Below, piece after piece: positions 1,884-63,815 of a stretch of DNA of 64,000 nt. The notes under the pieces are model-generated. The model searched no databases. It worked only from the letters and a program-made list of their open reading frames with translations, and was not told the origin of the DNA. How positions within the stretch are numbered: the stretch's first letter is position 1; each line of letters starts with the position of its first letter. Source of the stretch: Mytilus trossulus (lineage: Eukaryota); contig NC_086379.1 of assembly GCF_036588685.1 (NCBI RefSeq), positions 36,394,001-36,458,000 of the forward strand. The letters run 5' to 3'. Position numbers and translations under genes: made by a program.

Positions 1884-1999
1884 ATGTATTCATACAAAAG
1901 CTACCAGCTAGTTCCCCCAACCCAATAAGATGAATAACCAGGTCAGGAACGAACATAGTACTGGCCTTGGTTATAGAACTCCAAGATGAAAAAAATAAC

Positions 2000-8672: not shown

Positions 8673-8763
8673 ATAAAAGAAGAGTTATTTAGTACTTGTG
8701 GTTTTTTTTTATGAGGACTTATTAGTCTTTTGTATTTATTTGGCTTTTTAACTATTTTGATCT

Positions 8764-8808
8764 GAGCGTCACTGATGAGTCTTATGTAGACGAAACGCGC
8801 GTCTGGCT
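8764..8808 (+). ncRNA. Type I hammerhead ribozyme (partial retrozyme copy, about 8725-8835)
   Basis: GCGTCA-CTGATGA-GTCT(TATGT)AGAC-GAAA-C(GCGC)G-TC^TGGC; intact core, predicted cleavage after 8803. Confidence 0.85.
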
Positions 8809-9439
8809 TATAAAATTATAATCCTGGTACTATTTGCTTATAGATTAAACAATGACACAATTTATTTTTCATCAATTAAAGCCAAATACATATGTGTTTA
8901 CTATTGCTAACCGAATATAGTTCTTCCTGGTTTGAATGAGGACGTTAAATTAGATTTTTCGTGTACCACTCTCTTCGAAAAGAACCTTTGCAAGCACTCT
9001 TTAAGAGATCTGTAGATTTTATGCGGTTTTTTTCACAATGAAGCAGAATAGGAATTGGTTATCACTTTACTATATATAGAAATGTTGTTAATTATGAATC
9101 AATATCTCCACTTTTATAAAAAGTAATCAATGTTGTTTTTAATCGTCTTCCTTTTATTTAAGAAAATGAGAATCATCGTGCTCATCCTTTGGTGCATGAT
9201 TGGCAAATAAAAATATTTGATTTTTGTATGTTTAAAATCTGGCCATTTTTTAACTGACATCTTTTACATGTTTATTGCACTAAATTCCTCTTAAAAATTA
9301 CTCAAAAGAATATAGCATTGATTTTTTTAAAAGCAATAACTTAATGATGTTATTTAAAAGAAAACACACTCCAGCTTCCTCAACCAATACAAACTGACCA
9401 CCAAGAAATAGCGCAAACACGGTGAAAGTTGCGTTAAAC

Positions 9440-25900: not shown

Positions 25901-28900
25901 CATTTCAATAACATCTGTATCATCAAATGTAGTTGCTGTCTGACCCTGTGAAATTTATAAGTTCTGAAGATAATGCAAGTAAAGTTTTGGTAGATTTGCC
26001 ACTGCTGGAGGACGTTTCGTCCCCGAGGGTATCACCGACCCAGTAGTCAGCACTTCGGTGAATATCAATTATATGGTAATTTTTATAAATTTTCTGGTTA
26101 CAAAACATTTAATTTTTCGAAAAACTAAGGATTTTCTTACCCCTCGGAATAGATTACCTTAGCCCTATTTGGCACAACTTTTTGGAATTTTGGGTCCTAA
26201 ATGCTCTTCAACTTTGTATTTGTTTGGCTTTTTAACTGTTTTGATATGAGCGTCACTGATGAGTCTTATGTAGACGAAACACGCGTCTGGCGTATTAAAT
26301 TATAATCCTGGTACCTTTTCTAACTATCTATGATTATCTAATAAGTTAAAATCATTCCATAAATAGTGCTTTTATTGATGAATTGGGTATTAAAATTTGT
26401 TGAGCAAAATACGTTTGTCAACTTTTATTTACGGTTATAAATCAATAAACCAATAACTGGTTTTGTTGTTTCAATAACTGTTGGTCAATAAACTACTAAT
26501 AAGACATCTTTATACATATTTATGCAAATACATTTACTGCATGTCCAGTAATAAATGGTTGAATAAGAATTAGAAAACTATGATCTGCGTAAATATTACT
26601 CGTTTCGAAATTTTGGGTCATCCGTGCTTTTCAATTTCGAACATATTTGGTAATTTTCACGTATTTGTTTCTCGCATCTCTAATGATTCTTTTGTAGAGA
26701 AAACGCGCGTTCGGCGTACATAAATCTAAGCCTTGTATTAATAATGAGTTTGTTTGTCTCATAAAGTTGTTTATTAGGTAACTAGATTTGAACTTACATC
26801 CCTATTCAATGGCTGAATAAGACGGAGAAAAGCTCTCTCTGAAAAGGTATTCTCTGGTGGTGAAATGGCACGTGACTCTATTGAGAACTGAGTTGTGACG
26901 GTTATATTAAAAGGTGTACCAGAAGATCGTGACATTTCTAGTATTATACCAGAAGAGCTACTGCTTCCACCAAGTATACCATTGATTTTTGTGTCAGCAA
27001 TATAATTGTCTGGATTTGTTGCTAGATCTGAAAAAAAATATAAAAAGTTAAAGAAGCATACATTATTAACGTTCACGGAATTTTTGTTGAAATACCAGCT
27101 ATAAAAACTATCTGTATTTTTGTATTTGGGTTTAATGACAGAAAGTTGATCACATTTATTGATATAGTATTGACATATTAGAGCAAATGTAGCATTGAGA
27201 CAGGGTGCGTCCACCAGGCTTCTGTTGTTACGATTCATCGTCTAGCATCTCAATTAAAAGTATATTAATGTCACAGTTCAGAATGATTTCCAGTTATACG
27301 TGTACAAAACATACATGTCAAATAACTTGAATTATTTACATTTAAATCTTACTGCTAATAACCGCATTAAAACTTCTGAAAGCAAAGTAACATGGGTAAG
27401 TCGTAATAAAAGAGGAAACAACAGTGTAAAAATAAGATTTCAGGCAGATCAAATAAAGAACTACAGGAAATATGTATAAGGCAAAAATATAAGACTAGAA
27501 TACAAAACAAGATATCAAAGCAAATTAACACAATGGCGGGATTTAAAAGTAACGAGCCACGTCAAAAATGCAGTAAACAGAAAAAGTTAATAATTTACAC
27601 AGACTAAGAAAAAGAGCGCTATAACACACAGTTAAGATGAGAAATAAAGTTATTACTTGGATTATTTGTGAAGTTAATACTGAATATTTATCAACAAGTT
27701 CTAAGTACACCCTGATGATTTTTTTTTAGAAAAAATAGACTTTCTTTGACATAACCCTTGTTCATCAACTTTTTGCTCAGACACTGGTTTCGTTGAAGCA
27801 GCTGCAAGCTTTGAATACCGAATGAGATGTTGTCAATGATTATTTAATACGCAGGTGAAGTCGGTTTATTGCTACTGGGTAGGTAAAATTGATAATTCCA
27901 AAATCAAAATCGTTTCGTTTGTTACATATTTTGGTACTCAGATGACAACTTTTGTCATGGTCGAGGCACAATATGAAAAATTATGCAGATTGTTGGTTTT
28001 TTAATTTCAAGTTCTGAAAAAATATACTAATTGGAATCCAATCAGAACAGTAAATCGAAAGAACATCATCAACATATTTGAATGTGAAATTAAATGATCT
28101 GGTTTCTGTGTCCCTTGTTGTTGACAGTCGTCTGATTAGAAGGACGGTGACCAAATATACTAAATACCTATTGCACTTGCTTCGGTCAGTGAAACAACAA
28201 TGGTGGGTGTTCCTCCAGAGTTACCTGATACAGCTGTTGATTCGCATGCTAAAATGAGAATGATAAATAATGCTGTGATTCCAAATTCTAAATTTCCTTC
28301 CTGGTATCTATGATGCATTCTGTAAAGTACTAAGTTAGACCAAAATATCCGTTTGGGGCTACACGATTGTTCATTTTCTGTTTTTGTTTTGTTTTAAATA
28401 ACTGTAGCTTCAAGTATTGTGTTGTTGGTGTAACTTTTTGCTTTATCCATTTTTATCTTATTGATGGTATATCGGCCCAGTAACGTACATTTGTTTGTAG
28501 ATAGTAGATGTTTTTGTGTTCTGTTAAATTTATTCCTTTTAAAATTGTTATACGATGATGACTGATGTATCCATTTTATGACTATTTCATTGATTGTGGT
28601 TGTTTATCTAACGCATCAATGTAAATATAACGGAATTTGATGAGACTGTCATTAAGATGAGAGGTTTAGCGCTATAGAACCAGGTTTAATCCACCATTTT
28701 CTACATTTGAAAATGCCTGTACCAAGTCGGGAATAAGACAGTTCTTGTCCATTCGTTTTTAATGCGTTTTGTTATTTGATTTGGCCATTGATTCTCCTTA
28801 CTTTTTATATACTGTTTTAATATGCAAATATTTTTACCTCAAGCATTCACTGACGAGATGACGATTGTCGAGACGTAAATTTTGGGTAGAACATTAGGTA

Positions 28901-34457: not shown

Positions 34458-37244
34458 ATGTCGACAATGCCGTTCTTCATTTTACTTTGCTTGTTTCACG
34501 TCGGACTAACGTGCCAGATAATAATTACTGGAAACAATACCGTAAGTTGTTGCACTGAACTGGAGAGGAAGGTTACAGAGCTCGGGACAAAAATCCAAAA
34601 CAATGCATTGAAGACTGAGGTTGAGGAGTTAAAAAATCGTACTGAGGTTATAGAAAATCAAAATAAAGGTAAGTAAAATATGGGCATAATTATTACACTT
34701 ATTTGAAGTCATTGGATACTATTTTAATCAAATGAGGAGTGTCTGATCCTTTTCCGAATAAAAGTAATGTAGGCCTCTAAACTATTCATTACAATGATTT
34801 ATTTGACCAAAATGACCGTTCAACATAGAAAAAATGACAAAAGGATATAATTTATTTCGAAAAATGGGAAATTTTGTATACCGTTATTTACAATTAGACC
34901 ATATCAATACAACTCAAAACAGATGTGCTGACTACACTCTGAGAGACAAACTCCACCAGCAGTGGCAAAAATTATTGGTTTTGACTAAACGCATCATTTG
35001 ATAACCATTTTGTTTACAAAAGATAAATATGACAAAAATGTAAATATTCTTCTATAAGAATCTGAGGGTAGAATTTATTTTCATCGGTATCTTTTGATAA
35101 CCACACAGAAAATAACGAATTTTGTTTTAAACCAAGCAGCCTTGGAGATAAAGGTTAGAGAGTTTGAGCGAAAAGTCAAAAGCAATGCTTTGATGGCAAA
35201 GGTTGATGAACCGAAGGAAAGTACTGACGTGAAACAAATTTGGAATAAAGGTGAGTAAAGTATGAGCATAATTTTAAATTAAGTTGAAGGCATTTAATAC
35301 ACATGTACTAATGTTATAACATACGGATTTTCCCCTAATAAATAGTAATGTTAGTCATTTTGAATACTAGTTATAATGTTCTATCTGACCAAACTGCACA
35401 TTAAAAGACGTGAATAACAGCTTTGTCTCTAAAGACTTGTCACTTTCAACATCATTTAAGGTTGCCTTAGGTTGTAACTTACTTATATTATCTAATAATG
35501 TTAAGCATATCATATATATGAGTGAGATTTAATGGATTTTTCTTTTTTTTTTTAAAGTGTTTTTCAAAAATACTACTTTTTAAACCTTCTGAGTGAATGT
35601 ATTTCAACATGTGTAGAATTAATATGAGAAAAACAGAACACTGTATTTTTCTAAACCAGTAGATATAGACAAAATATTGACTATTTATTCCTTTTCATTT
35701 GAGTACTGAACTTAATGTTAATTGATACATACCTACATTGTTAAATAGGATCGTGTGGTAAGAAGAATCTAGCGTTACATAAGACATGTAGACAAAGTTC
35801 ATATCACGAACACCATAAATGTGATAAGGCTGTCGATGGAGACCTCAGTAACTTTATACACACACAAATTACAATGAAAAATGGTACTTGGCACGGTGAA
35901 AGTTATCCGTATTTCTGGGTTGATCTGAACAACAGTTGTTTAATCAAACTAATCAAAATATACAACAGGAAAGAATGTTGTGGTAAGATTTCTATTAAAT
36001 ACAATTAAAGGATATTTATGTTATTTTATACAATATTAAACCAATTAGGAGAAATTTATATTCATGTTTGAGTGTGCATTTTTATAAATATGTAGGATCC
36101 TTTACTATAGATAATTTAGCTGATCTGTAACAATAACATCTTCATGCCTTATATATCATGTACTGTAGTACGCCGCTAGATTAAAACTGACGTGGAAAGG
36201 TAACACATGCCCACCGATAGCTCTTTTTATGAGAGCCCAGGTGGTCGTGTGGTCTAGCGGGACGGCTGCAGTGCAGGCGATTTGGTGTCACGATATCACA
36301 GTAGCATGGGTTCGAATCCCGGCGAGGGAAGAACCAAAAATTTGCGAAAGCAAATTTACAGATCTAACATTGTTGGGTTGATGTTTAGACGAGTTATATA
36401 TATTTATATATATATAAACGAGTCTAAATTGAAAACTATATATATAAATGCTTTCAAGTTTCATATTAATTACCTCTTGTTTTGATTAACAAGAATATTA
36501 AATCTCAATTTTACCTTAGCCATATTTGCCATAACATTGGACTTTGAGGTCTTCGATGCTTTCCAACTAAGTACTTTTTTGGTTTTATAATCGTTTTGAT
36601 ATGAGCGTCACTGATGAGTCTTATGTAGATGAAACGCGCGTCTAACGTATTGAATTATAAACCTGGTACCTTTGATAACTGTTTACTGTCCTATTCCTTA
36701 CTTGTTACAGGATATTTAAAGAAAAAACTGGTGGGTTAAACAGTTTTTTTCAAACAAATAAAATTGAGAATGAAAATGGGGAATGCATCAAAGAGACAAC
36801 ACGTCGACCACAGAGTAAAAAAAAAACACAAGTTAGCAAATACATACTTACTTTATTTATAAATCACTTAAAATACATTAAGAAAAAATCATAAAATGTT
36901 TCACATTTAGAATCAACAGAACTATTTTACGAATCCATAAATAAAATCGTAATAAGTAATCACACAATCATGTTATTCTTTAATGGAGCAATACTTCAAT
37001 GGTTTGTGTAGTTTACGTTTATTTTGTAGGCGATAGACTCCGCAATGTGGAAGTTACTATTGGACATTCATTATCTAATATGAAGTTATGTGGTTTCTAT
37101 AAAGGTCCAGCTGCAGACGGAGAAATTGTAAACATATATTGCAAAGTACCAATGGTAGCACGTTACGTCAAGGTGATGCTTAAGGAAAATAAAATAGAAG
37201 AAACAGTGATTAATTTTGCTGAAGTCGAAGTATTCGCTAAATAA
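34458..37244 (+). CDS. F-type lectin 2: secreted; exons 34458-34668, (35140-35250 extra coiled-coil exon), 35749-35982, 37030-37244
   Basis: Paralogous to lectin 1 exon by exon: MSTMPFFILLCLFHVGLTC leader, coiled coil, NLALHKTCRQSS...AVDG...HT...PYFWVDL...YNRKECCGDRL...EVEVF. Phase-1 GT-AG introns; AATAAA at the stop. Confidence 0.92.
36232..36400 (+). mobile_element. tRNA-derived SINE-like repeat
   Basis: Pol III A-box TGGTCGTGTGG and B-box GGTTCGAATCC with extended spacing, followed by a non-tRNA body and (TA)n. Confidence 0.65.
36603..36648 (+). ncRNA. Type I hammerhead ribozyme in last intron of lectin 2 (retrozyme remnant about 36510-36682)
   Basis: GCGTCA-CTGATGA-GTCT..AGAT-GAAA-CGCGCG-TC^TAACGT; core intact, stem I weakened. 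Confidence 0.7.
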
Positions 37245-37699: not shown

Positions 37700-38060
37700 T
37701 GGTGGTGGACCGTTAGTCTCCGAGGGTATCACCAGCCCAGCAGCCAGTACTTGGGTGCTTCGGTACTGGCATGAAAATACGGATTTTTATGTGTGGTTAA
37801 AATTTGCTGTTACCAAATTTTAGAAATTATTATAAATTAAGGAATGTATCTCCCTCATGCAAAGATCTGATTCTTTTCACGAATTTGGCTCTACTTTTTA
37901 GACCTTTTTGATTATAGCTCTTCATCTTGTATATGAGTATCACTGAAGAGACATATATTGTCGAAATGCGTATCTGGTGCAGGAAAATTGGTACCGTTAA
38001 TGTTATTTCTACCACTGGGTCGATGCCTTTGCTGGTGGATTGTTAGTCCACGAGGATATT
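37700..38060 (+). mobile_element. Second-family retrozyme unit with hammerhead at 37935-37980
   Basis: GTATCA-CTGAAGA-GACA(TATAT)TGTC-GAAA-T(GCGT)A-TC^TGGTGC; the GGTGGA..CCGAGGGTATC module appears at both ends, i.e. one full permuted unit. Duplicated at 39767-40050 (core 39928-39973). Confidence 0.8.
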
Positions 38061-38497: not shown

Positions 38498-41400
38498 TGT
38501 CATATGGTATTTTGAACCCCCTAAAAATTGAACCCGGGTTCAAAATACCATGCGATAAAATGACCCCGGGGTCATGCGAGTACTCCCAGATCTGCACTCA
38601 ATGCCTTTTTGTAAAGTAAAATTTTCAAAATATCTTTTCCAGTATGTTAAATACATACAAACTACTTGTTGGAGTATAATAACTATGTTAAGAAGTTTAA
38701 ATAGCTAGAATTTTTGAAATTCAAGGTCTATAGTAGGGGTTCAAAATACCGCAGGGGGGTCAAAATACCATGGATATATTTTTTTTCAAAATGTCTTTTC
38801 CAGCATGTTAAATACATACAAACTACTTATAGGAGTATTATTACTATGTTAAGGAGTTAGAAAAACATGATTTTTTGAAATTTAAGGTCTATGGTAGGGG
38901 GTTCAATTTACCGCAGGGGGGTCAAAATACCATGGAAATTATTTTTTTTCAAAATATCTTTTCCAGCATGTTAAAAACATACAAACTACTTATAGGAGTA
39001 TTATTACTATTCAAAGGAGTCAGAATAACATGAATTTTTGAAATTTAAGGTCTATGGTAGGGGGTTCAATATACCGCAGGGGGGGGGGGTCAAAATACCA
39101 TGGCTAAGTAAAATTTTCAAAATATCTTTTTCCTTTTTATCTAACTCCTTAACATAGTTATTATACTCTGATAAGTAGTTTGTATGTATTTCACATACTG
39201 GAAAAGATATTTTGATAATTTTATTTTGCAATGGTATTTTGACCCCCTGCGGTATATTGAACCCCCTCCCATAGACCTTAAAGTTCAAAAATTCTTGCTA
39301 TTCTAACTCTGTAACATAGTTGTAATACTCTAATTTGTAGTTTGAATGCATTTAACTTGCTTGAAAAGATATTTTGAAGAAAAAAAAATCCATTGTATTT
39401 TGACCCCTCCCCCTTCCATGGTATATTGAACCCCATCCTATAGATCTTCAATTTAACAAAATCCACCTATTCTCAATCCCTTAAATAGTAATAATACTCC
39501 AATTAGTAGTTTGTATTCATGTATTTAAAACTGGGAAAGATATATTGAAAAAAAATAATTTCCATGGTATTTTGACCCCACTGCGGTATATTGAACCCCC
39601 TACTTTAGACCTTTCATTTTAAAAGATCCAGATATTCTTAATCCTTAACATAGTTATAATACTCCAATAAGTAGTTTGTATGCATTAAACATGCTGGAAT
39701 AGATATTTTGAAGAACCAAAAAATGGTATTTTGACCCCACTGCGGTATATTGAACCCCCTACTATATTTGCTGTTACCAAATTTTAGAAATTATTATAAA
39801 TTAAGGAATGTATCTCCCTCATGCAAAGATCTGATTCTTTTCACGAATTTGGCTCTACTTTTTAGACCTTTTTGATTATAGCTCTTCATCTTGTATATAA
39901 GTTTTGGATTTCAAATATTTTGGCCACGAGTATCACTGAAGAGACATATATTGTCGAAATGCGTATCTGGTGCAGGAAAATTGGTACCGTTAATGTTATT
40001 TCTACCACTGGGTCGATGCCTTTGCTGGTGGATTGTTAGTCCACGAGGATATTAAGCGACCAACTATTAATCTATTCGAGGAAAACAATTAAATTATTTG
40101 TTTTCCATAATGTGAATTCGGAACAAAGGAAAATCATCAGGATTTATTCAGCTCTAATTCGTTAACAGACTCCGTCGCCACATATAGGGTAAGAGTTGTT
40201 TCGTCACAATCTCTTGACTGTTAATGACGTCTTAAACTAAATCGGATAATCCAATGGATTCTTTATGTGTTCTGCTTGATTATTTGGTCTTAGATGCATG
40301 ATTTTTTTTGGTTGGTATTGACTTTGAACTAGCTGTCAGTAACTGCGAGTACACCCAGATCTGCACTCAATGCCTTTTTGTTATTGGCACTGGCTACGGT
40401 TACATGGAAATGAAACAATAATAAAATTATTATTAATAAATGGCTAAGTAAAATGTTCAAAATATCTTTTTCCTTTTTATCTAACTCCTTAACATAGTTA
40501 TTATACTCTGATAAGTAGTTTGTATGTATTTCACATACTGGAAAAGATATTTTGATAATTTTATTTTGCAATGGTATTTTGACCCCCTGCGGTATATTGA
40601 ACCCCCTCCCATAGACCTTAAAGTTCAAAAATTCTTGCTATTCTAACTCTGTAACATAGTTGTAATACTCTAATTTGTAGTTTGAATGCATTTAACTTGC
40701 TTGAAAAGATATTTTGAAGAAAAAAAATTCCATTGTATTTTGACCCCTCCCCCTTCCATGGTATATTGAACCCCATCCTATAGATCTTCAATTTAACAAA
40801 ATCCACCTATTCTCAATCCCTTAAATAGTAATAATACTCCAATTAGTAGTTTGTATTCATGTATTTAAAACTGGGAAAGATATATTGAAAAAAAATAATT
40901 TCCATGGTATTTTGACCCCACTGCGGTATATTGAACCCCCCTACTTTAGACCTTTAATTTTAAAAGATCCAGATATTCTTAATCCTTAACATAGTTATAA
41001 TACTCCAATAAGTAGTTTGTATGCATTAAACATGCTGGAATAGATATTTTGAAGAACAAAAAAATGGTATTTTGACCCCACTGCGGTATATTGAACCCCC
41101 TACTATAGAACTTGAATTTCAAAAATTCAAGCTATTCTAACTCCTTAACATAGTTATTATACTCCAACAAGAAGTTTGTGTGTATTTCACATACTGGAAA
41201 AGATATTCTGATAATTATACTTAGCCATGGTATTTTGACCCCCCTGCGGTATATTGAACCCCCTACTATAGACCTTGAATTTCAAAAGTTCAAGCTATTC
41301 TAACTCCTTCACAAAGTTAAAATACTCCAATAAGTAGTTTGTATGTATTAAGCATACTGGAAAAGATATTTTGCTAAATTTTACATAGCCATGGTATTTT

Positions 41401-42811
41401 GACCCCCCTGCGGTATATTGAACCCCCTACCATAGACCTTAAAGTTCAAAAACTCTTGCTTTTCTAACTCCGTAACATAGTTGTTATACTCTAATTTGTA
41501 GTTTGAATGCATTTAACTTGCTTGAAAAGATATTTGAAGAAAACAAAATTCCATTGTATTTTTACCCCCTCCCCCTTCCATGGTATATTGAACCCCCTCC
41601 TATAGACCGTCAATTTAACAAAATCCACCTATTCTCAATCCTTAACATAGTAACAATACTCCAAGAAGTAGTTGGTATGCATGTATCTAACTTGCTTGAA
41701 AAGATATTTTGAAAAAAAAATTAAATTCCGTGGTATTTTGACCCCCTGCGGTATATTGAACCCCCTACTAGAGTATAGACCTTGAATTTAAAAATTCAAG
41801 CTGCTCTTACTCCTTAACATAGAAATTATACTCTTATAAGTAATTTGTATGTTTTTCACATACCGGAAAAGACATTTTGATAATTTTATTTTGCCATGGT
41901 AATTGACCCCCTGCGGTATATTGAACCCCCTACCATAGACCTTAAAGTTGAAAAATTCTTGCTATTCTAACTCTGTAACATAGTTGTAATACTCCAATTT
42001 GTAGTTTGAAAGCATTTTTAAACTTGCTTGAAAAGATATTTTGAAGAAGAAAAAAAAAATCATTGTATTTTGACCCCCTCCCCCTTCCATGGTATATTGA
42101 ACCCCCTCCTATGGACCTTGAATTTTAAAAATCCAAGTTTTTCTAACTCCTTAACATAGTTTTGATACTTCAATAAGTAGTTTGTATGTATTTAACATGC
42201 TGGAAATTTTACTTAGTCATGTTATTTTGAACCCCCTATTATACATAAAGACCTTTAATGTTAAAATATCTTGCTACTGTAACTCCTTTACATATTTATT
42301 ATACTCCAATAAGTAGTTTGTATTCATTTTATTAGCTTGAAAAGATGTTATGAAAATTTTACTTTTTAGATTAACTGAGCAATGGTAATTTGACCCCCTC
42401 CCCCTTTTTTACCATGGAGAATTGAAACTTAAGTCTACCATTCTATATGAATATTTTGAATTTCAAAGAATGTAAGTGTCCAAGCTACATGGTCTATTTA
42501 TAATGCTTTAAGAAGTTTTTTGAATGAAATGTTGGTTAAGACTTCAGAGCACTTATACCAAGCAAATATTTTTCTTTTGACCAATCATTAAAAATTGACC
42601 TCCCCCTCTTGTATCAATGATTTTTAATATCTGATTAGCTTTTATATAATGTTAATTGTTTAATTAATCATCTAGAATGAAAAAAACTGGGGGTTCAATT
42701 TACCAGGGGGGGAGGGGGGGGTCAATTTACCATGGGTGGGGGTTCCATTTACCATAGCGGTATTTTGACCCCGGGTTCATTTTACCATGGGGTTCAAAAT
42801 ACCATATGAAA
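38498..42811. mobile_element. Ginger-like fold-back element filled with about 120-bp tandem repeats
   Basis: CCGG|TGTCATATGGTATTTTGAACCCC...GGGGTTCAAAATACCATATGAAA|CCGG (TGT..ACA-type ends, 4-bp CCGG TSD). Internal units contain ATGGTATTTTGACCCC-TGCGGTATATTGAACCCC and flip orientation near 39120. Confidence 0.75.
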
Positions 42812-44025
42812 CCGGTTTAATTACGAATGTAACAATAATTATTGAGGCTACGGTTACATTGCGTTATTGTTACATGAAAAAAGCAATGTACGATGGGACT
42901 AATAATATGTACTAAATAATAAAAGTTGAGGACATTTATAACATACATTTATAACATACATTTATAACATACAATTTATTTACTGTAATTTTTTATTTAC
43001 AATGACAATTTCTACAAATCCAGTAAGTTGTTTTCATGTCCGACACATTTTTTATGAACGAAATTACGTCCTCCACGGATACGTGTACATACATAATTTC
43101 TTAGTATTTAAGTTACAGTTAGCAAAGTTATAAAGCTGTATGAAATGTATGTCTTGATATTGTTTAAGTTTCGTTTAAAACGCATCCCAAGTTTTTTTTT
43201 CTCACCATAAACAAAATTGGTCTAAAGTACAATGACAGTAATAAGAGTAAGTGCGCAGTTAAATACTTTAAAAAGGTGAAACCATTGAACTATATTGTTC
43301 GCCTTTGACAGTCACACTCCTAATCTTGAGTAGTATCTTTAAGAACATCAAAAGACAAAACCATTAATACGCAGTAAAACTATTCAAGTTGTACACTTGT
43401 TGAATAATAATATTTAATTATTTATCAGTATTAAATTACAAGTATTGTTTAGTACATATAAAAGAATGAAGCAATACAATTATAAAAGATTTAAGTTTAA
43501 TCAATCTAGCGTACATTAATGTTTTTCATGTAACAATAACGTAATGTAACCGTAGCCTCAGTAATTATTGTTACATTTGTAATTAATCGGTTCCTCATCC
43601 AACTTTGCATTCCGGCAATAAGTCTCCAATGTTACAATAATATTTTTATTATTGTTGTAGTAGTAGTTGGGTCTCAAAGTTCAAGTCCAATAAATTCTTA
43701 TTGTTTATTGTTATAAAACGCATGAATGTATAATACACAATACAATAGACTGCATAGTGTCGCAGGTACCCTCGTACTTGGTTCGAAGTTTACGTGAAAA
43801 CTACAAAGAAAAATGAAAACAACCTTAGTAAAACAGTCAAAATAAACAGAAATTATATTCGAATGACATATGAATCAAGCACAATATCCGCACAATACAA
43901 AAACACAACAAATTTACCTCTTTGGGCCAATTACACACTGATCTAGTTCGCATATTTCGTTCGTTTACTGACAAGGGAGATAACAATGTATAATCCTGTT
44001 ATTCGTATGGCTCCTCATCAGGGAA

Positions 44026-47000
44026 TTATTCGGTCTCCTGGAGTAAGACCATCTTATGGATTGGTCGTTCTAGCTCGGTGAGTTTTGACTTACGGACGCC
44101 TCTACGATCCAAATTCGTTGATCCTACTGCGAGTCTTACTTTTCGGACTAAATTATCATCATCAACGAATGTTTTGCAAATTCGACCTAGTTTCCACATG
44201 TTTCGCACTAAATTGTCATCCTTAATCATAACAATGTCACCAACAGATAAATTTCGCTTCGGAGCGATCCATTTTTGCCTAGACTGAATATTTGAAAGAA
44301 ACTCTTTCCTCCAACGACTCCAAAATTCATTTGCAAGAAACTGAACCCGTCTCCAGCGCTTTCTGGAATATACGTCGTTTTTCATGAAGTTTCCAGGTGG
44401 TGGTAGAAAAACTTTACTTTTCATAGTCAATAAATGATTTGGTGTCAACGGTTCAACGGAAAGCGGATCGTTCAGGTTTTCCAACGTAAGTGGTCGACTA
44501 TTCACTATAGCTGTTGCTTCAGACATTAAAGTTCTCAACGACTCATCATCAAGCTGAGTTCCTAGCTGACATAGTAAAGTTGAAAGAATGTTTCGGACAG
44601 AACGTATCTGTCTTTCCCAAACGCCACCCATGTGACTAGCAGACGGAACGTTCATCTTAAATTGTACGAAATCCAATTTGTTCAAGTAGATATTGACGGA
44701 TTCGGTCAAAATCCAATTCAGACATTGCCTTAGTATATTCTCCTTCGGCTCCAACAAAGTTAGTTCCTTGATCACACCGAAGATGCCTTACGGGTCCGCG
44801 GATAGACACAAATATTCTCAATGCATTAATGAAAGAGCTCGTATCTAAAGAGTTAGCAGTTTCGATATGAATTGATCTCGATGACAAACAGGTAAATAAA
44901 ACTCCATACCGCTTAAGTTCATTGCGGCCCTCCTTAATTAACCAAGGTCCAAACAGATCAACACCACAGTACGTGAATGGAGGCATAGTCTCTAGTCGGT
45001 CTACCGGTAAATCAGCCATTTTCTGTACCTGAGTTTGGCTACGCAATTTTCGACATGTAACACATTTAGACAAAAGGTTCGAAACAGCAGAACTACATCC
45101 GATTATCCAATATCCATGTGAACGTATTGTGTTCGTAGTAATTCCACGTCCTTGGTGAAATGATTTTTCGTGAAAATAGCGCATGATAAGCTCGGTCACG
45201 TGAGAATGTCTAGGTAATATAATAGGATGCTTCAAATCAATGCTCAGATCAGCACGTCGGATGCGGCCACCAACTCGGATGATGCCGTCCTGGTCGAGAA
45301 AGGGGTCAAGTTTATACAAAGACGATTTCTTTTTCATAGTATTGTTTCGCACTTTAGCTGAGTCGTTGGCTTCAAACGGTCCTTCAGAATCAAATGAACG
45401 CAATATGAGTAATTCTTCCTTGAAGAAAGTGTCTTGAACCCTTTTGACAATTTCAAGTTCAGCTTGTCGCATGTCTTCCATGTTAACGGATAAACAGGTT
45501 CCCTTCGGACGTTTTGCTAGCAACGCATTTCTCAGGTTCAAGCAAAGAGCTGTCGCATGTTTAGCTCTGTTCCAATCTGAAAAGTATTCTAAACGTTCAA
45601 GTATGGACGCAGGAGGAGGTAAACAAGTACTTGTAGACATTACTTTAACTTTTCTGACTTCCGGGTCATTCAATAACGGTTTAGACGTATCCGATAATTC
45701 CTTTCTGACTACGTGTTCCGCATTCCATAAGAAATCTGGTCCCGTAAACCACTTTGATTCTCTTAATTTGATCGGTGTAGCTCCACGAGAAGCAATGTCG
45801 GCTGGGTTTTCGGCAGAACTGACATAATTCCACTGAAATGGTTCGGTGTTGTCGCGAATCTGTTGTACTCTGTTAGCCACATGAAAACGCCTGGAATCAT
45901 TCGCAATATAACCTAGTACTACGTTACTATCGGTCCAGAAATACTCAGTGACATTTTTATCGGAATACTCAAGTTCATCTCTAAAAATTGCACTGACTTT
46001 CACGGAGATTACTGCAGCCGTAAGCTCTAACCTGGGAATCGTAATGGGCTTTAACGGAACTACTCGAGATTTACCAATAACCAGAGCACAATGTACTTGT
46101 TGTTTAAAGTTGAAAAGGCGAACGTACGAACACTGACCGTAACCATTTGAACTAGCATCTGAAAAATGATGAAATTCTATGAATTTTACTTCGCCAAAGT
46201 CAACCGGTTTGAAGCAACGATTGATTTTCAATAATTCAAGGTCTATTAAGTCTTGCTTCCACCTTTCCCATTTGTTCTGGATATCTTCCGGTAACGGGGT
46301 ATCCCAATCGGTTTGATCCTTACATAAATCTTGCAAGAGCTGTTTCCCAACAAGAATGATGGGTGAGATAATACCTAGCGGATCATATACTGCGCTTAAT
46401 GTAGACAGCATTCCACGCCTTGTAGGCGGCTTGTTGTTGAGCGTGATACGAAATTGAAACACATCTAATTCAATACACTATTCAATTCCTAATGTCTTTG
46501 TCGTTGGAAGTTCATCATGTGATAAGTTTAAATTCAACTCTTTGGCACGATCCTTTTCTGGTATGTGCGCTAAAACATCCTTAGAATTTGACAAAAATTT
46601 GTGCAACCGAAGACCACGCTTATTGCACATTTCTACACTACCATGTATAAGGTTCACTGCTTCTGTAACGTTTGACACAGATTTAAGACCATCATCAACG
46701 TAAAAATCACGTCTAATAAAGTTCGATACTTTGGAACCAAAATCGGCTTCATAATCATTAGCAAGTTGTTTAAGTCCGAAATTGGCACATCCAGGGGATG
46801 ATGCGGCCCCAAAAAAATGGACGTTCATCCTGTATTCGCACGGTTCTTTCGAAAGATCTTCATAATTGTCCCACCACAAAAATCGTAAATAATCTTGGTG
46901 TTCAGTTCTCACTTTGAACTGTAAAAACATTTGTTCAATATCGCAGACTACTGCAATTGGTTCTTGACGAAATCTACAAAGCACTCCTACCAACGAGTTC

Positions 47001-50000
47001 GTTAATAGTTATCAAAGGTACCAGGATTATAATTTGATACGCCAGACGCGCGTTTCGTCTACATAAGACTCATCAGTGACGCTCAGATCAAAACAGTTAA
47101 AAAGCCAAACAAATACAAAGTTGAAGAGCATTGAGGACCCAAAAATTCCAAAAAGTTGTGCCAAATACGGCTAAGGTAATCTACTCCTGGGCGTAAGAAA
47201 ATCCTTAGTTTTTCGAAAAATTCAAAGTTTTGTAAACAGAAAATTTATAAAAATGACCATATAATTGATATTCATGTCAACACCCGAAGTGCTGACTACT
47301 GGGCTGGTGATACCCTCGGGGACGAAACGTCCACCAGCAGTGGCATCGACCCAGTGGTGTAAATAGTTATCAAAGGTACCAGGATTATAATTTGATACGC
47401 CAGACGCGCGTTTCGTCTACATAAGACTCATCAGTGACGCTCCGATCAAAACAGTTAAAAAGCCAAACAAATACAAAGTTGAAGAGCATTGAGGACCCAA
47501 AAATTCCAAAAAGTTGTGCCAAATACGGCTAAGGTAATCTACTCCTGGGCGTAAGAAAATCCTTAGTTTTTCGAAAAATTCAAAGTTTTGTAAACAGAAA
47601 ATTTATAAAAATGACCATATAATTGATAGTCATGTCAACACCCGAAGTGCTGACTACTGGGCTGGTGATACCCTCGGGGACGAAACGTCCACCAGCAGTG
47701 GCATCGACCTAGTGGTGTAAATAGTTATCAAAGGTACCAGGATTATAATTTGATACGCCAGACGCGCGTTTCGTCTACATAAGACTCATCAGTGACGCTC
47801 AGATCAAAACAGTTAAAAAGCCAAACAAATACAAAGTTGAAGAGCATTGAGGACCCACAAATTCCAAAAAGTTGTGCCAAATACGGCTAAGGTAATCTAC
47901 TCCTGGGCGTAAGAAAATCCTTAGTTTTTCGAAAAATTCAAAGTTTTGTAAACAGAAAATTTATAAAAATGACCATATAATTGATATTCATGTCAACACC
48001 CGAAGTGCTGACTACTGGGCTGGTGATACCCTCGGGGACGAAACGTCCACCAGCAGTGGCATCGACCCAGTGGTGTAAATAGTTAAGTCTGGGCCTTGCA
48101 GCAAGTAATCGTTTAGTGATTCACCTTTGTATCTAGAACTACAATCAAACACAACACGGACTTTTTCGGGCTTCTGAGGATGATATACTCCGTGATGTGG
48201 TATGTACCAAACATGTCCTTCGTTATCGGATTGAGACGGTTTAACTTTCTCCGCAAATTCCTTTGTTATTAAGTCATCCATACTCTTAAAATAGTCATTT
48301 CGGTATCGAGCATCATTGCGTAAACGCTTTCGAAGATGATTGAATCTCTGAATGGCTTGAGACTTGTTGTTCGGTAATATCGGTTCGGATCCTTTAAAGG
48401 TCAAGGGCATTTCATAATGTCCATCATTTACTCTGATTCCGCTTTCAAGAATGTTCAAAAAACGTTTGTCATCAAATGACATAGACTGTTTGTCATGAGT
48501 TCGTTCGGAAAAATCGAGTTCCATCATTCGCGCTACTTCAACGGGACTTACTAATTTTGTAAAATTTCTAATAGTAAATAATACATGGCTTTCAAACGCT
48601 ATCATTCTGTGAGAATGTGTAGTTAATGCATTATCAATGCAGCTCGGATCCACAATACCAACTATACCCCATCCGAGGTCTGTTTTCTGTGCGTAAGGTC
48701 CATCATCAGTTGTCGGAATCACCTCTCTAGGAGTCAATGCACGGGCGCAATTATAACCTATAAGTAGTCCGAATTCGCAATCACTTACTGGCATCAACTG
48801 ACTGGCAATCTTCTCTAACTGCGGCCATTTTCTCGCCATATCACAAGTAGGTATATGTGCTCTATTTGCCGGTAAGATGTCGCGGGCAAATGTAGACGGT
48901 AACGTTATCTTCATGTCGCTATCGTAAGCCCTTACTATTTATCCATCTATCTTACAGCTATCGACTATTGAATTCTGTGAATGCATGGTTGATAATGACA
49001 GCTTCACGTCGGCACCAGAAAGTCCAATAGTTTGACGTGTATTGTCCAAATTGAACGTAGTATCAGACTGAGTATCTAAGAGTGCGTACACTAGTATTTC
49101 ATGTTGTTGGTTATCAATATGAGAGCGATAAACAGGAACAATCATCGAGCTTTTTCCACATGACTCGGTTATGCTCATTAAAACCGCACCAGTTTGAGAC
49201 TTATAAAGTTCCTTTTCCTCATTACAAGGTGTAGGTTGTTTTAAATTGTTCGGAAATTGTTTTACTACATCTCCATGAAAGGCTGTCGGATGTCGTTTTG
49301 TGCAAATGCTGCACGTTGCGCGTTTGTTACACTGTTTCGATAAATGTCCAGAGCCTAAACAAGCAAAGCACAACCCTGTTCTCTTAGCAAATTCTTTACG
49401 CTCTTGTACAGATTTTGCAAGGTAGTTTCTACATGAATCAAGTATGTGTCCAGCCTTGTGACAGAACAAACAATTCTTATTAGCACCGGAGTTACTTTCT
49501 TTGGTCCTATCATAACTAGTCGACTTTGTCTCCGTTGCAAATGCATTTCTGCGTGGTGTATCACGGTCATTTTTAACACTTCGAAAGTTTGTGTCCGTAT
49601 TTCGTGGTGTACTTTCTGTTTTAAGAGAGTTGAGAGAAGTAACAGGATCGTTCGCAATCGTTGATTCTCGTTCAATAAACACAGAAAAAGTCTGAAATGA
49701 GGGAAATGTATGATGATCACTTTTATGTTGAGCGACAATTCGTCCCCATCGTGTAACTATCCAGTCGGGAAATTTTGATAAAAGTTTTCGGTTCTCACGA
49801 TCATCATTAAGAACGTTCAGATTCTTGATCGTTTTCATTGCGGAAAGACACTGTTTAATATAATCTGAAAATTTTCTCAATCCTTAGCTATCACGAGACG
49901 CTATCTTAGGCCACTTTTCTAGTCGGTCACGAAAAGCATTACCAACGATAAACGGGTCACCATACCTTTGGTCTAACAGTTTTTTAGCATCAAAATAAGA

Positions 50001-51245
50001 GTCATCTGTTGCAATAAGGAAAAAGTTTTCGATTACTTCACGAACGGAGTCTCCAACATACCTACGTAAGTAATGGATCTGCTCTAAAGGTGGTATGTTC
50101 CTTCGCTCAATAAGGGTCTCAAAAGCTACTTTCCATGACGCATATTTTAATGGATCGCCATTAAATATCGGAGGTTCAGGCAGAGGAAGTCTATTCAAGT
50201 TAACTTGGTCAGCAAAAGATTTGGCTAAGTCAGTAACCACATCTGAGCTTATTGTTTTTGACATAATTGGCATTTCGGTTTTCGGTAAATCCACATGCAC
50301 AGAATCGGTTTGTACGTGATCCATCGCTCTGAAACTACTTGTTTCTCTTTGAATCGGAACAAATTCATTTACTTCCGGATTTAGACCTGAGGAGCTAACA
50401 AAAGGTGCGACAACTGGTTGATTTTGGTTTATCGCATAGTCAACATTTGTATCACTAGTAAAAGGCACAGAAGACGATAAAATGTTAGGTACACTTGAGT
50501 TTTTGTTTTGATCATGTGAAGCACTTACAGTCTTTAAGAAGATTGTCAATATATCGGCTTGTGGTAAATATTTTTTTGCATCATCAAGCACTGAGCCACC
50601 CTGACTTACTCCTTCGAGTATTTCTAACTTTACTTCTGCAGTTTCTAACTCACGCCTAGTTTGAATTTTATCAAGTTCTAATTTTGCTTTCGATTCAGCT
50701 TCAATATATTTCAATTTTGTTTTTAGTTCAGCGGCTCTTGCAGCAGTTTCAGATAATTTAGACGCATTTGATATTCGAGACGAAACATGTGACCTTTCAG
50801 ACACCAAACGGTTCGATCGACTAGAACGCCTAGATGACCTTTCACTTTTTATCTCATCAATACATTGTATGCGTTTAGCAATCTCTTTTAAAATAGTAGC
50901 AGTATCTGTTTCACACTGTTCAAATTTCTGAGAAATATCAGTTCCGATTTCGCGAGCTGATTGAGAATGTTCCGATGAAGAGCCTACTTCGCTTAGCAAA
51001 CGACATAAATGTTTTTAAATGTCCTCAATTTGACTCATACATTTTACTAATGAGTCTCTAGTGGCACGTTTTTCTGCTAAATCATCACTGTCACTCAAGA
51101 GAATACTTAACTTATTGTGTTTCGAGTGCCAAGCTGATATAGCTTTTTTTAAATTTTGCTGAAGAGTGTCTAATTGCCAGAATAAACCCTTTTCAGTCAT
51201 TTTGCGGTGTCTCGTAACGCGTGGTTCCTCACAAGGACTAGACAT
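44026..51245 (-). pseudogene. BEL/Pao gag-pol polyprotein interrupted by stops, frameshifts and a 1.08-kb insertion
   Basis: Three Zn knuckles (CLFCHKAGH, CFACLGSGH, CSICTKRH), protease ALLDTQSD, RT YVDD, RNase H FSDAS/PRLEL, integrase H..H..CVTC plus GVDLFGP, CDQGTNF and GGVWER. Broken into seven ORFs. Confidence 0.95.
47004..48085 (-). mobile_element. Tandem trimer (3 x 358 bp) of a hammerhead-ribozyme retrozyme inserted in the BEL/Pao RT region
   Basis: Unit starts at 47004, 47362, 47720 (and terminal 48078). Each unit has, on -, GAGCGTCA-CTGATGA-GTCT(TATGT)AGAC-GAAA-CGCGCG-TC^TGGCGT with cleavage at 47045, 47403 and 47761. Removing it restores LLQGPDLTNSLVGVL; GTTAA is present on both sides. 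Confidence 0.95.
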
Positions 51246-52077
51246 GAATAATTATAATACATTATGATATATACAGAATCAAAATGCACATAATTCAAAT
51301 AAATCAACATTCAAAACCTATGCATCAATATGACAAAATAATAAGCAATAAAAAATGACAAATTCACGTAGGCAAAATATCAATATGACTTGCTATGACA
51401 AGTTTATAAAAAATGCAATAATATTCAAAGGTATTACCAAAATTCATCAAACTACACAAAAATCTTAAAATGCATCAATGGCGCAATGAAATTTCAAGTT
51501 TGTCAATTATGCTAAATCAATAGTCATATTAATAATATCAATTTATTTCTGTAAATAATAGAAGGCTATGTCCCAGTCTTGACAGCTTCCACTGTTCTTC
51601 TTCTGTTGTAACCGCAATTTCTATGAAGAATAAATGTAACAAACACTTTGGATTCGTTTATGATTGTTTTTGTACAAATGTTCACTGTTACGTAAGTTAT
51701 GTGTCAATAGCCACTGCCAAATCACACGTGTTAAATTAACGCATCACATCAGGTATGAAACTGTGTAGAGAGTTTTCACTGTAGTAGTAGTTGGGTCTCA
51801 AAGTTCAAGTCCAAATAATTTCTTATTGTTTATTGTTATAAAACGCATGAATGTATAATACACAATACAATAGACTGCATAGTGTCGCAGGTACCCTCGT
51901 ACTTGGTTCGAAGTTTACGTGAAAACTACAAAGAAAAATGAAAACAACCTTAGTAAAACAGTCAAAATAAACAGAAATTATATTCGAATGACATATGAAT
52001 CAAGCACAATATCCGCGCAATACAAAAACAAAACAAATTTACCTCTTTGGGCCACTGATCTAGTTCGTATATTTCGT

Positions 52078-62106: not shown

Positions 62107-62281
62107 TAGTTATCAAAAGTACCAGGATTACAATTTTATACGCCAGACGCGCGTTTCGTCTACATAAGACTCATCAGTGACGCTCATATCAAAATAGTAA
62201 AAAAGCCAAATAAATACAAAGTTGAAGAGCATTGATGACCCAAAATTGCAAAAAGTTGTGCCAAATACGGCTAAGGTTATT
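62107..62281 (-). ncRNA. 5'-truncated retrozyme copy with intact hammerhead (62140-62185)
   Basis: High identity to the first half of the 358-bp unit; perfect core and GCGC loop. Confidence 0.9.
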
Positions 62282-63815
62282 TAAACTTTTCTTTGCGAAC
62301 ACAGGTATTGTTATCATCAACTTCGGCAATATCCTTCAGCATTATTCAGATAATTCAAAAATACCTCCCTATTTTATAGACCAGTCTGTACCTATCATTT
62401 TGTATATCTTCTGGTATACCAAACCAATTGCAACTTCTAGTATATATATTTTTTTATTACAAACACGTGTTGCAGATTCTCAATATTAACGACTTTTAAC
62501 CCTATTAAACCTACTGATTGAACCTGTGCTAGTTCCCCATTCACATATAATCCAGCTGGCCACGTTATAACCGGTAACTTTAAACTTGACAATAACACAA
62601 ATTTGTTATCCAAAATCCTAGAATATCGTAAACCTAAATCCATCAATTAGAATCACAACTTATGTGATTATACCAGGCAATGAGCTAAACACGAAAATGA
62701 AGACGTAAATACCCTTCCTGAATGGATTTAGGCTGTGAGGTAACACAAATAAGAATTAAGAAACTGAATGGGTCTATTAATACCCATGCTACATTTATCT
62801 TTAAAGACCCACATAGTGCTTTTAAAGCACTTGTCCTACCTCCAGGAAAAATATGTTGTTGTCTCCGCAGATAAAGCCCCAAACAACATATTTTTGTGTG
62901 TAAATCACATTATATAAATTTCTTGATAAATGAATAAGATATTTACAATTCACTTGGAAACTCAACATATACCCCCACGACACTCACTAAAAGAAATCCT
63001 GGATAATCATAGGTCTGTGTTCCTTTGGAATTTCGACCAGAGATGGAGACCTGTTTATTCACTGAATTAGATTCACAAATTACATGTGTGTTCTTATGTA
63101 CAATGGTATATTTCTGGGTATTTTTAATGTTCCACGAAACCTCAATCTAAATGATAAACATCAATATGATCAAAAATCAAAGCCGGGCTTCAAATATATT
63201 GTGAAACTACATACTTCTAGAGGTGGCGTTAATCAGATGGAGATACTAAAAAGATCTTTTCAATAACCACTTATCAAAGACACTTTCACCTTGCAATAGC
63301 ATAAACGCATTTGAATTTTCTACACCTGACACAAGTAATCCCCATTCCAAACTGAAAGACAAATTGAAAAAATTGATCCTGCTTTGTTGCATTAAAATGA
63401 ATGGCCAACGTAGATACAAGTATCTTGTCTTAGGGAGAGATACAACCTCATTTGTTAGAAAATCACTCTGATTCAAACAACAGTTTTTTTTTTGATCTGA
63501 CATTATCAAGATTGTTGATTTATCGATTGCAGGACGTTTTTTCAACAAATGATCGGCATTCCCATGGAGAAAACTGTGTCTCTCTTCTTGCCGACTAGTT
63601 CCTTTATTCATATAAGGTCGATTTCACTTAGAAACTTATTAGGTAGAAAGAAAAGAAGATAACAGTATCTTTAAATCCTAAATCTTTACCTTCGGCTATG
63701 TAGATAATGTGCTCTCACTAAATAATTCAAAATGTGGTTACTTTATATGTTAAACGAACCTATCACATCGAACTGGAGATAAAGGAAACAACAGTTACTG
63801 TTGAGTCTTATCATA
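62282..63815 (+). pseudogene. Decayed Penelope-like element ORF (N-terminal region + RT)
   Basis: Frameshifted segments IPPYF.DQSVPII, YNPAGHVITG, VVVSADKAPN (PLE DKG/DKA motif), GVNQM.ILK, QMIGIPM, F.YVDNVLSLNN (YxDD-derived). Confidence 0.75.

What the first reader, a model, noticed from the sequence alone, without database searches (positions are those of the whole stretch)
47001..47045. Retrozyme insertions share one 3' boundary about 40 nt downstream of the cleavage site
Independent family A copies end at the same point (...GGTACCTTTGATAACTAT): 47004, about 26327, about 36682, 62107 and, with a small deletion, about 8835. The 5' ends vary (truncated). The trimer both begins and ends at TAACTAT and matches the target over GTTAA. 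Inference: cDNA synthesis starts at a fixed site that is not the ribozyme-cut end. This fits target-primed reverse transcription initiated internally on a circular template and rolling round to give exact multimers, aided by microhomology to AT-rich targets.
Basis: partly seen in the sequence, partly recalled or inferred. Interest (0 to 1): 0.7.

Follow-up and report, generated by a model that had tools for sequence, protein, structure and literature searches.

The report
Retrozyme start site shared with Naiads
Copies of this self-cutting RNA repeat nearly all end about 40 bases past the ribozyme cut, just before a predicted RNA stem-loop that the genome's Naiad jumping genes share and also stop in front of, so the Naiad copying enzyme likely docks there and starts copying the repeat into the genome; a circular template and exact multimers are not shown.

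Summary
The fixed 3' end is real. In samples not selected on it, 111 of 123 family-A ends fall 36-48 nt past the hammerhead cut and none at the cut. 5' ends are spread evenly round the 358-nt unit. The trimer is not an exact multimer: empty copies of its BEL/Pao host show 1081 nt added (3x358+7) with a 5-bp target duplication, and its 5' TAAC is target sequence. Targets start with TT at +40/+41, with 4-8-bp duplications and short primer-template matches. A predicted stem-loop at +47..+104 is shared with two ribozyme-free Naiad Penelope-like families (55 of 63 nt identical to Naiad-2; compensatory changes in Naiad-1). Those Naiads and sister retrozymes end in the same register. Best reading: Naiad-driven target-primed reverse transcription with internal initiation, as shown in vitro for Poseidon (PMC11167929). 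A circular template is plausible but unproven. Mussel-type retrozymes and a PLE helper are already proposed in print; five searches found no named helper or start signal. This scan reported the same link earlier on other DNA of this genome.

The parts
47006..48081 (-). Retrozyme family A trimer, three 358-nt units plus 2 nt; 3' end at 47006 (+39), ambiguous to 47004 (+41)
   Evidence: Tandem Repeats Finder, period 358; empty-site comparison
47001..47005 (+). 3' copy of the 5-bp target-site duplication (GTTAA on +, TTAAC in element sense); its TT also matches element +40/+41
   Evidence: Present once in 3 of 3 close empty host copies L062-L064; 1081-nt skip with 5 ambiguous letters in 4 of 4 DNA runs
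48082..48086 (+). 5' copy of the target-site duplication; 4 of its bases (TAAC) are also element sequence, a 5' microhomology
47039..47082 (-). Type I hammerhead of the 3'-most unit: 6-bp stem I, CUGAUGA core, palindromic stem III; predicted cut 47045|47044
   Evidence: Motif scan, stem I pairs 6 of 6; no Rfam hit at gathering score; cleavage not tested
47397..47440 (-). Hammerhead of the middle unit; predicted cut 47403|47402
47755..47798 (-). Hammerhead of the 5'-most unit; predicted cut 47761|47760
47006..47044 (-). 39-nt stretch between the ribozyme cut and the fixed 3' end (the finding's coordinates)
   Evidence: Match to the element 92-99% at +30..+38, 86% at +39, 82% at +40/+41, 55% at +42, background from +47 in 148 termini
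48014..48071 (-). Predicted bulged stem-loop (+47..+104) shared with Naiad-1 and Naiad-2; candidate RT docking and start signal (first copy)
   Evidence: Folding; 55 of 63 nt identical to the Naiad-2 junction; 6 pairs with change on both sides, 95% of cells paired
47656..47713 (-). Same stem-loop, second copy (one private G-to-A change in the basal helix)
47298..47355 (-). Same stem-loop, third copy
25997..26326 (+). 5'-truncated family A copy ending at +39 (alignment runs to +43)
36511..36686 (+). Older 5'-truncated family A copy ending at +38 to +44
62107..62283 (-). 5'-truncated family A copy ending at +39, inserted in an old Naiad fragment
8729..8835 (+). 5'-truncated family A copy; matches to +27, then either a 10-nt deletion to the common end or an earlier end
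43689..52054 (-). Host BEL/Pao LTR retrotransposon copy interrupted in its RT region by the trimer; terminal repeats 99% identical
   Evidence: Repeat D17; PF05380 at E 1.5e-45 and a weak RVT_1 match; three close copies without the insertion

Best explanation
These are copies of a non-coding hammerhead retrozyme that all end 39-42 nt past the ribozyme cut, just before a predicted stem-loop shared with Naiad Penelope-like elements, and they were likely written into the genome by the Naiad protein through target-primed reverse transcription that would start at that fixed internal site. Inferred steps: (1) the Naiad protein binds the stem-loop at +47..+104 of retrozyme RNA; (2) its GIY-YIG endonuclease nicks T-rich DNA so that the primer ends in AA; (3) the primer pairs with the U run at +40..+42, often with further partial pairing to +46; (4) synthesis starts opposite +39 or +40 and runs back through the uncut or re-ligated ribozyme junction for a variable distance, on a circle or an uncut multimer; (5) the 5' end is joined at a random point, often through 1-4 nt of microhomology, leaving a 4-8-bp duplication or a small deletion. 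Shown directly: the end positions, the duplications, the shared sequence and the shared register. Naiad-2 is the best candidate helper; Naiad-1 is a second one.
For: Fixed 3' end in 111 of 123 and none at the cut; uniform 5' ends. Duplications of 5 nt or more in 43 of 140 (200 shuffles: mean 12.3, maximum 22) and of 6 nt or more in 23 (mean 3.4, maximum 9). Of 14 insertions with an empty site at 78% identity or more, 8 could be traced to the junction; all 8 targets begin with TT at +40 or +41, 7 with a 4-8-bp duplication and 1 with a 7-bp deletion. After a mismatch at +40..+42 the flank still has C at +44 and +46 in 21 and 23 of 70 cases against 11 expected (p 0.002 and 0.0003). The Naiad-2 tandem junction matches retrozyme +45..+107 at 55 of 63 nt (score 96, shuffle maximum 35.5); Naiad-1 scores 48.5 (maximum 28.5) with three compensatory pairs in the basal helix; Naiad-3 does not match (14) and four C-terminal-endonuclease PLE families score 27 or less against 43. 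Same register relative to the G of GTCGATG: family A +41 equals -12; Naiad-1 27 of 28 ends at -13..-5, mode -12; Naiad-2 31 of 42 rows lose the match at -14..-10; sister retrozymes A2 (27 termini) and B (9) end at about -13/-12. Both Naiads have long open frames with N-terminal GIY-YIG, CxC, DKA and YIDD. RNA reads in 3 of 3 raw-read runs are deep, biased to the element strand and show no pile of molecule ends at the cut or at +41. Internal initiation downstream of the ribozyme on AT-rich targets is shown in vitro for Poseidon_Ac (PMC11167929).
Against: No binding or enzymatic test. Only 3 Naiad and 4 other PLE families were examined; the Naiad-like fragment in L031 was not followed up (one search failed) and a closer helper may exist. 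The stem-loop could instead be a promoter or other 5' element inherited from a Naiad ancestor. The covariation rests on 9 related sequences, and 26 of 500 shuffles reached the observed number of doubly changed pairs. [quoted passage not shown] 6 of 14 empty sites were too diverged to read. 12 of 123 ends lie elsewhere; several are internal deletions that reach the same end, others are unexplained. RNA libraries are fragmented and come from other individuals, so they show molecule ends poorly.
Confidence: 0.75

Rival explanations
1. One reading: the template is the circular monomer, and the RT rolls round it to give exact multimers.
For: All 127 closed copies of 60 nt or more cross the cut site and 62 of them exceed 400 nt; 5' ends are not enriched at the cut (8 of 129 against 5.0; only 3 lie within 3 nt of it). 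Unit length is nearly constant within most arrays. 3 of the trimer's 4 internal differences were found in no other sampled locus. Circles are the dominant RNA form in mussels (PMC7229834).
Against: Multimers are not exact. Within-array differences (median 2 per 178 nt) are close to nearest between-array differences (median 3) in 51 arrays. Long arrays of dozens of units exist and could supply uncut linear RNA. Naiads make tandem copies with the same fixed end and no ribozyme core was found in the parts scanned. Reads that 'go back 358' fit tandem DNA as well as circles. The circular-template part alone is put at about 0.55.
Confidence: 0.15
2. Ordinary 3'-end priming: a linear transcript simply ends at +39..+42 (terminator or processing site) and a LINE-type or PLE RT starts at its 3' end.
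For: A short T run at the end and 5' truncation are also what LINE and SINE insertions show (established knowledge). A at +40 in 22 of 148 termini and in none of the internal junctions listed resembles untemplated addition.
Against: No pile of RNA ends at +41, and loose read ends continue into the next unit. No poly(A) or simple-repeat tail. The conserved structure lies downstream of the end, so an RNA ending at +41 would lack it in its last unit. The same register holds in five families with different upstream sequence.
Confidence: 0.1
3. DNA-level spread: circular DNA or tandem arrays integrate or recombine at a short AT-rich homology, without reverse transcription.
For: Short matches to the target at both junctions of the trimer; long arrays exist; one 1055-nt composite array looks like a local tandem duplication of a copy with its flank.
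Against: Circle integration would add whole units, but 1081 = 3x358+7. It predicts no polarity, yet 3' ends are fixed and 5' ends random. Target duplications are enriched.
Confidence: 0.04

Closest known systems
Metazoan non-LTR retrozymes, mussel 350-390-bp repeats (Cervera and de la Pena 2020, PMC7229834; review PMC7761336)
   Same: Type I hammerhead in a tandem non-coding unit of 354-358 nt, thousands of copies, highly expressed; target-primed copying of a circle by a PLE was proposed there as one option.
   Different: In the parts read, no insertion boundary or start site is mapped, and the review says the repeats show no conserved motif that points to the helper. The published sequences (supplements) were not seen, so identity with the published family was not tested.
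Internal initiation by Poseidon_Ac (Frangieh et al. 2024, PMC11167929)
   Same: Reverse transcription starts inside the RNA, downstream of the ribozyme cut, on AT-rich targets; genomic ends match the start sites; sequence downstream of the start is needed; uncut RNA is the substrate.
   Different: That is an autonomous C-terminal-endonuclease PLE with two start sites about 85-90 nt past the cut and no homology to the cleaved DNA. Here there is one start zone at +39/+40, a non-coding passenger, and a 2-5-nt match to the target.
Naiad PLEs (Craig et al. 2021, PMC8557442)
   Same: The candidate helpers have N-terminal GIY-YIG, CxC and DKA motifs, tandem copies, 5' truncation and no canonical hammerhead core in the parts scanned; Naiads are abundant in bivalves; the paper suggests that ribozymes may parasitize PLEs.
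   Different: The passages read describe no 5' stem-loop and no Naiad-retrozyme link, and give (TA)n microsatellites as preferred targets, whereas targets here are mostly non-repetitive TT sites.
Retrozymes as non-autonomous PLE derivatives (Li et al. 2026, bioRxiv 10.64898/2026.07.22.740005)
   Same: Retrozymes share sequence with PLE termini and co-occur with PLEs.
   Different: That evidence is from Xenopus pLTRs and proposes local amplification from a pLTR. It maps no ends or duplications and names no Naiad helper. Here the shared part is the stem-loop, and the helper lacks the ribozyme.

Membership tests
Non-LTR retrozyme | Type I hammerhead motif in every unit | tested here: met
   Core and 6-bp stem I in 3 of 3 units; Rfam gave no hit at gathering score
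Non-LTR retrozyme | Tandem non-coding unit of 150-450 bp, dispersed, without LTRs | tested here: met
   Period 358; no frame of 150 aa inside the trimer; 11,823 exact cores genome-wide
Non-LTR retrozyme | Abundant transcription | tested here: met
   Depth about 800-3300 on the major strand against 0-4 in the host flank, 3 of 3 raw-read runs; reads come from the whole family
Non-LTR retrozyme | Self-cleavage and accumulation as circular RNA | not testable with these tools
   Short reads cannot tell circles from tandem transcripts; shown for mussel retrozymes in PMC7229834
Non-LTR retrozyme | Target duplications, when present, longer than 4 bp | tested here: met
   4-8 bp in 7 of 8 readable empty sites; excess at 5-9 nt over shuffles
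PLE-type internally initiated TPRT | Fixed 3' end downstream of the ribozyme cut with 5' truncation | tested here: met
PLE-type internally initiated TPRT | AT-rich target | tested here: met
   TT at the nick in 8 of 8 readable empty sites
PLE-type internally initiated TPRT | [quoted passage not shown] | tested here: not met
   2-5-nt match between target and RNA +40..+45; whether this is pairing or nicking preference is open
PLE-type internally initiated TPRT | Optional 30-40-nt tail from a second start site | tested here: not met
   One start zone; of 148 termini only 1 matched past +46 and no second peak among off-peak ends
PLE-type internally initiated TPRT | RT initiation at the site in vitro | not testable with these tools
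   Needs purified protein
Naiad PLE (candidate helpers) | N-terminal GIY-YIG before the RT, with CxC and DKA motifs | tested here: met
   Naiad-1: PF01541 at aa 183-273 of 1056, motifs read in the translation. Naiad-2: same order and motifs read in L360; not scanned against Pfam
Naiad PLE (candidate helpers) | Partial tandem arrangement with pseudo-LTR | tested here: met
   Tandem copies 4277 nt (Naiad-1) and 3370 nt (Naiad-2) apart
Naiad PLE (candidate helpers) | No canonical hammerhead | tested here: met
   No CUGANGA..GAAA core in the flanking regions of Naiad-1 ORFs or in the sense strand of L360; variant cores were not sought
Naiad PLE (candidate helpers) | Placement in the Naiad clade by RT phylogeny | not tested
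   No tree built; reference Naiad sequences (supplement of PMC8557442) not seen

The most novel reading that the evidence does not exclude
Mussel-type retrozymes are circular RNA parasites that pair a hammerhead with a docking stem-loop taken from ribozyme-free Naiad retroelements. The stem-loop positions the telomerase-related Naiad RT about 6 nt upstream of its base, the nicked DNA pairs with a short U run, and the RT copies the circle for a random number of turns. This would name the helper of an animal retrozyme and define a roughly 60-nt signal that makes a circular RNA a substrate for genomic insertion.
Probability: 0.45. Interest if true: 0.75.

Novelty: new variant of a known kind. Interest (0 to 1): 0.6.

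Why it matters
Which enzyme spreads animal retrozymes, and how a circle without a 3' end is primed, are stated as open in PMC7229834 and PMC7761336. A mapped start site, a target signature and a stem-loop shared with intact, abundant Naiads make both questions directly testable with the assay already used for Poseidon. It also bears on the idea that hammerheads parasitize PLEs and are not needed by them (PMC8557442), and suggests that primer-template pairing, reported absent for Poseidon, may occur in Naiads.

Tried and rejected
One search used a query ending at the proposed boundary; its loci (28 of 31 at the peak) were left out of the 111-of-123 count as biased, but 29 of them are among the 148 termini used for base composition. 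The window's own 4 ends were also left out of that count. Ends below 85% identity were dropped from it: in the random set 23 of all 46 ends are at +36..+48, and many others belong to sister families whose alignment to family A breaks early. A 29-nt match to the retrozyme tail upstream of three Naiad-1 copies lies in the Naiad-1 3' repeat region and was not used as evidence. A genome-wide count of tails that continue into the next unit failed because the spacer was one base short (43 hits, uninformative), so the 12,058 exact tails cannot be split into terminal and internal. Within-array versus between-array divergence did not separate circle from linear template. Rfam found nothing. Naiad-3 and four C-terminal-endonuclease PLE families lack the stem-loop. 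Inverted 5' segments are rare (3 loci among 140 upstream flanks). The empty form in public DNA runs differs from the window flank by 5-8 letters and may be a paralogous host copy, so it is not evidence of polymorphism at this locus.

Full report
What the element is. The cited stretch is the 3' end of a minus-strand trimer of a 358-nt unit. Each unit holds a type I hammerhead with a 6-bp stem I and a palindromic stem III; the predicted cut in the last unit is 47045|47044. Rfam gave no match at gathering score. The 1.3-Gb genome holds 11,823 exact copies of the 32-nt core. Unit size and copy number fit the mussel non-LTR retrozymes of PMC7229834; the published sequences were not seen. Positions below are counted from the cut (+1 = 47044).

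The observation. In the window the trimer and the copies at 25997-26326, 36511-36686 and 62107-62283 end at +39 to +44; the copy at 8729-8835 matches to +27 and is ambiguous. To avoid selecting on the end, I sampled loci with queries that stop at the cut, a mid-unit query, the core pattern and 80 evenly spaced 10-kb stretches. Among closed ends at 85% identity or more, 28 of 31, 27 of 28, 25 of 29, 13 of 14 and 18 of 21 lie at +36..+48: 111 of 123 in all, and none at the cut. In 148 termini the match to the element is 92-99% at +30..+38, 86% at +39, 82% at +40 and +41, 55% at +42, and background from +47. Genome-wide, 10,054 of 11,823 cores continue exactly for 7 bases across the cut. 5' ends of 129 copies are even around the unit (chi-square p 0.51); 8 lie at -10..+3 against 5.0 expected (p 0.13) and 4 at +32..+45 against about 5.

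The trimer is not an exact multimer. It sits in a BEL/Pao element with 99% identical terminal repeats. Three close copies of that element lack it, and contigs in 4 of 4 public DNA runs skip exactly 1081 nt with 5 ambiguous letters. So 3x358+7 nt were added, with TTAAC duplicated. The TAAC that seems to open the trimer is target sequence that also matches the element, a 5' microhomology; the last TT is shared at the 3' end.

Target signature. Across 140 insertions closed at both ends, a repeat of 5 nt or more that starts at +40/+41 and recurs at the 5' junction is seen in 43 (200 shuffles: mean 12.3, maximum 22), and of 6 nt or more in 23 (mean 3.4, maximum 9). Of 14 insertions with an empty homologue at 78% identity or more, 8 could be walked back to the junction. 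All 8 targets begin with TT at +40 or +41; 7 have a 4-8-bp duplication and 1 a 7-bp deletion; 6 were too diverged. Among 70 termini that already mismatch at +40..+42, C recurs at +44 in 21 and at +46 in 23, against 11 expected. This fits a primer that pairs loosely with the RNA just past the start, but nicking preference is not excluded. A at +40 occurs in 22 of 148 termini and in none of the internal junctions listed, and is absent from the target in 2 of 2 testable cases, which suggests an untemplated or stuttered first base.

The helper. A GIY-YIG search led to a young PLE with a 1056-aa frame, endonuclease first, with CxC, DKA and YIDD: the Naiad features of PMC8557442 (Naiad-1). A second family, Naiad-2, has 1000-aa frames and 25,224 first-look candidates, a number that includes relatives. 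At its tandem junction Naiad-2 matches retrozyme +45..+107 at 55 of 63 nt (score 96, shuffle maximum 35.5); Naiad-1 scores 48.5 (maximum 28.5); Naiad-3 does not match; four C-terminal-endonuclease families score 27 or less. The shared stretch folds into the same bulged stem-loop in family A, family B, Naiad-1 and Naiad-2. On 9 sequences 95% of cells pair and 6 pairs change on both sides, 3 of them in the basal helix between retrozymes and Naiad-1; slid controls pair at 40-53%. Relatedness and small numbers limit this test. Relative to the G of GTCGATG, family A +41 is -12; Naiad-1 ends fall at -13..-5 in 27 of 28 (mode -12); Naiad-2 rows lose the match at -14..-10 in 31 of 42; sister retrozymes A2 (27 termini) and B (9, one doubtful) end at about -13/-12 although their upstream sequence differs. 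The end is thus tied to the downstream structure, not to the ribozyme, and no ribozyme core was found in the Naiad parts scanned.

RNA. Three raw-read runs from the species label of a best DNA holder give depth of about 800-3300 on the strand expected for element-sense RNA, against 0-4 in the host flank. No pile of molecule starts or ends appears at the cut or at +41, and loose ends continue into the next unit. The boundary therefore does not look like an RNA 3' end, though fragmented libraries show ends poorly.

Mechanism. Shown: fixed 3' end, random 5' end, TT targets, duplications, shared stem-loop sequence and register. Inferred: Naiad protein docks on the stem-loop, nicks T-rich DNA, primes at the U run and copies back through the ribozyme junction. 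A cut linear monomer would offer only about 40 nt of template from this start, so the template must be a circle or an uncut multimer: all 127 closed copies of 60 nt or more cross the cut and 62 exceed 400 nt. The two could not be separated: in 51 arrays neighbouring units differ by a median of 2 per 178 nt and the nearest other array by 3. I put Naiad-driven internal initiation at 0.75 and a circular template at about 0.55.

What is known. Papers seen: bioRxiv 10.64898/2026.07.22.740005, parts 1-3 of 5; PMC11167929, parts 1-2 of 4; PMC7229834, passages, parts 2-3 of 6 and the Discussion; PMC4209133, part 1 of 4; PMC8557442, PMC3846280 and PMC7761336, passages only. No supplements were read; those of PMC8557442 and PMC7229834 may hold the same Naiad and retrozyme sequences. 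Internal initiation is known for Poseidon; 5' microhomology and 8-10-bp duplications are known for Penelope elements; a PLE helper and circular templates are proposed for retrozymes. Five searches returned no paper that maps retrozyme ends or names a Naiad helper, and PMC7761336 states that no motif pointing to the helper was known. After this reading was reached, earlier notes of this scan turned out to report the same link on other DNA of this genome; they are not independent support.

Verdict. The boundary is real and family-wide; 'exact multimers' is wrong; the circle is open. The added value is the target signature and a named, testable helper with its signal. New variant of a known kind; interest 0.6.

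Noticed in passing
L020 (G000:C7:36532962-36536078): A Naiad-2 3' end, short of its last 7 nt, is joined directly to the 5' end of a 426-nt family A copy. It may be a template switch from retrozyme to Naiad RNA or an insertion into a Naiad end; it is the only such direct join among 140 upstream flanks.
   Followed up: partly
L149, about 1440-1480: A different hammerhead family (B2) runs directly into a family A array that begins at +41, another possible template switch near the start site.
   Followed up: no
L003, L031, L081, L163, L195, L205, L217, L268: Several 5' ends fall 5-14 nt upstream of the cut, in or beside the palindromic stem III; possibly RT stalling at the ribozyme. The count near the cut was not significant.
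   Followed up: partly
L369-L371, L374-L375 (Naiad-3): A third abundant Naiad-like family (period about 4021 nt) has its RT frame limited to 480 aa in most of the 150 listed copies, with a frame change upstream in 2 of 3 loci read; possibly a programmed frameshift. It has its own fixed T-rich end and a different downstream structure.
   Followed up: partly
L208 (G000:C1:158000-167000): A 1055-nt tandem unit made of a 1.3-unit retrozyme copy plus about 590 nt of flank, 4 copies at 96-97% identity; looks like local DNA duplication.
   Followed up: partly
window 37700-38059, 39844-40052, 19662-19745, 19974-20057: Family B retrozyme copies with a different hammerhead but the same stem-loop; two lie in a 1993-nt-spaced duplication.
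   Followed up: partly
window 26603-26745 and 30498-30603: Old, diverged retrozyme remnants (70-76% identity) that also end near the common boundary.
   Followed up: no
window 27657-28106 and around 62000-62430: Decayed Naiad-like RT fragments; the second is interrupted by the 62107-62283 retrozyme copy.
   Followed up: no
window 14736-15812, 38616-42384, 67-288: Satellite arrays with 26-bp, 163-165-bp (both orientations) and 24-bp units.
   Followed up: no
L302 243-273 and 548-578 (also L297, L298): A 29-nt match to the retrozyme stretch +13..+41 lies inside the repeated 3' region of one Naiad-1 subfamily; it may be an old short insertion carried along by the Naiad.
   Followed up: no
G000:C1:113382-118375 and 269288-295525: Long retrozyme arrays (about 15 and over 70 units of 354-355 nt) near the start of the largest contig; they end at the same +42/+43 boundary.
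   Followed up: partly
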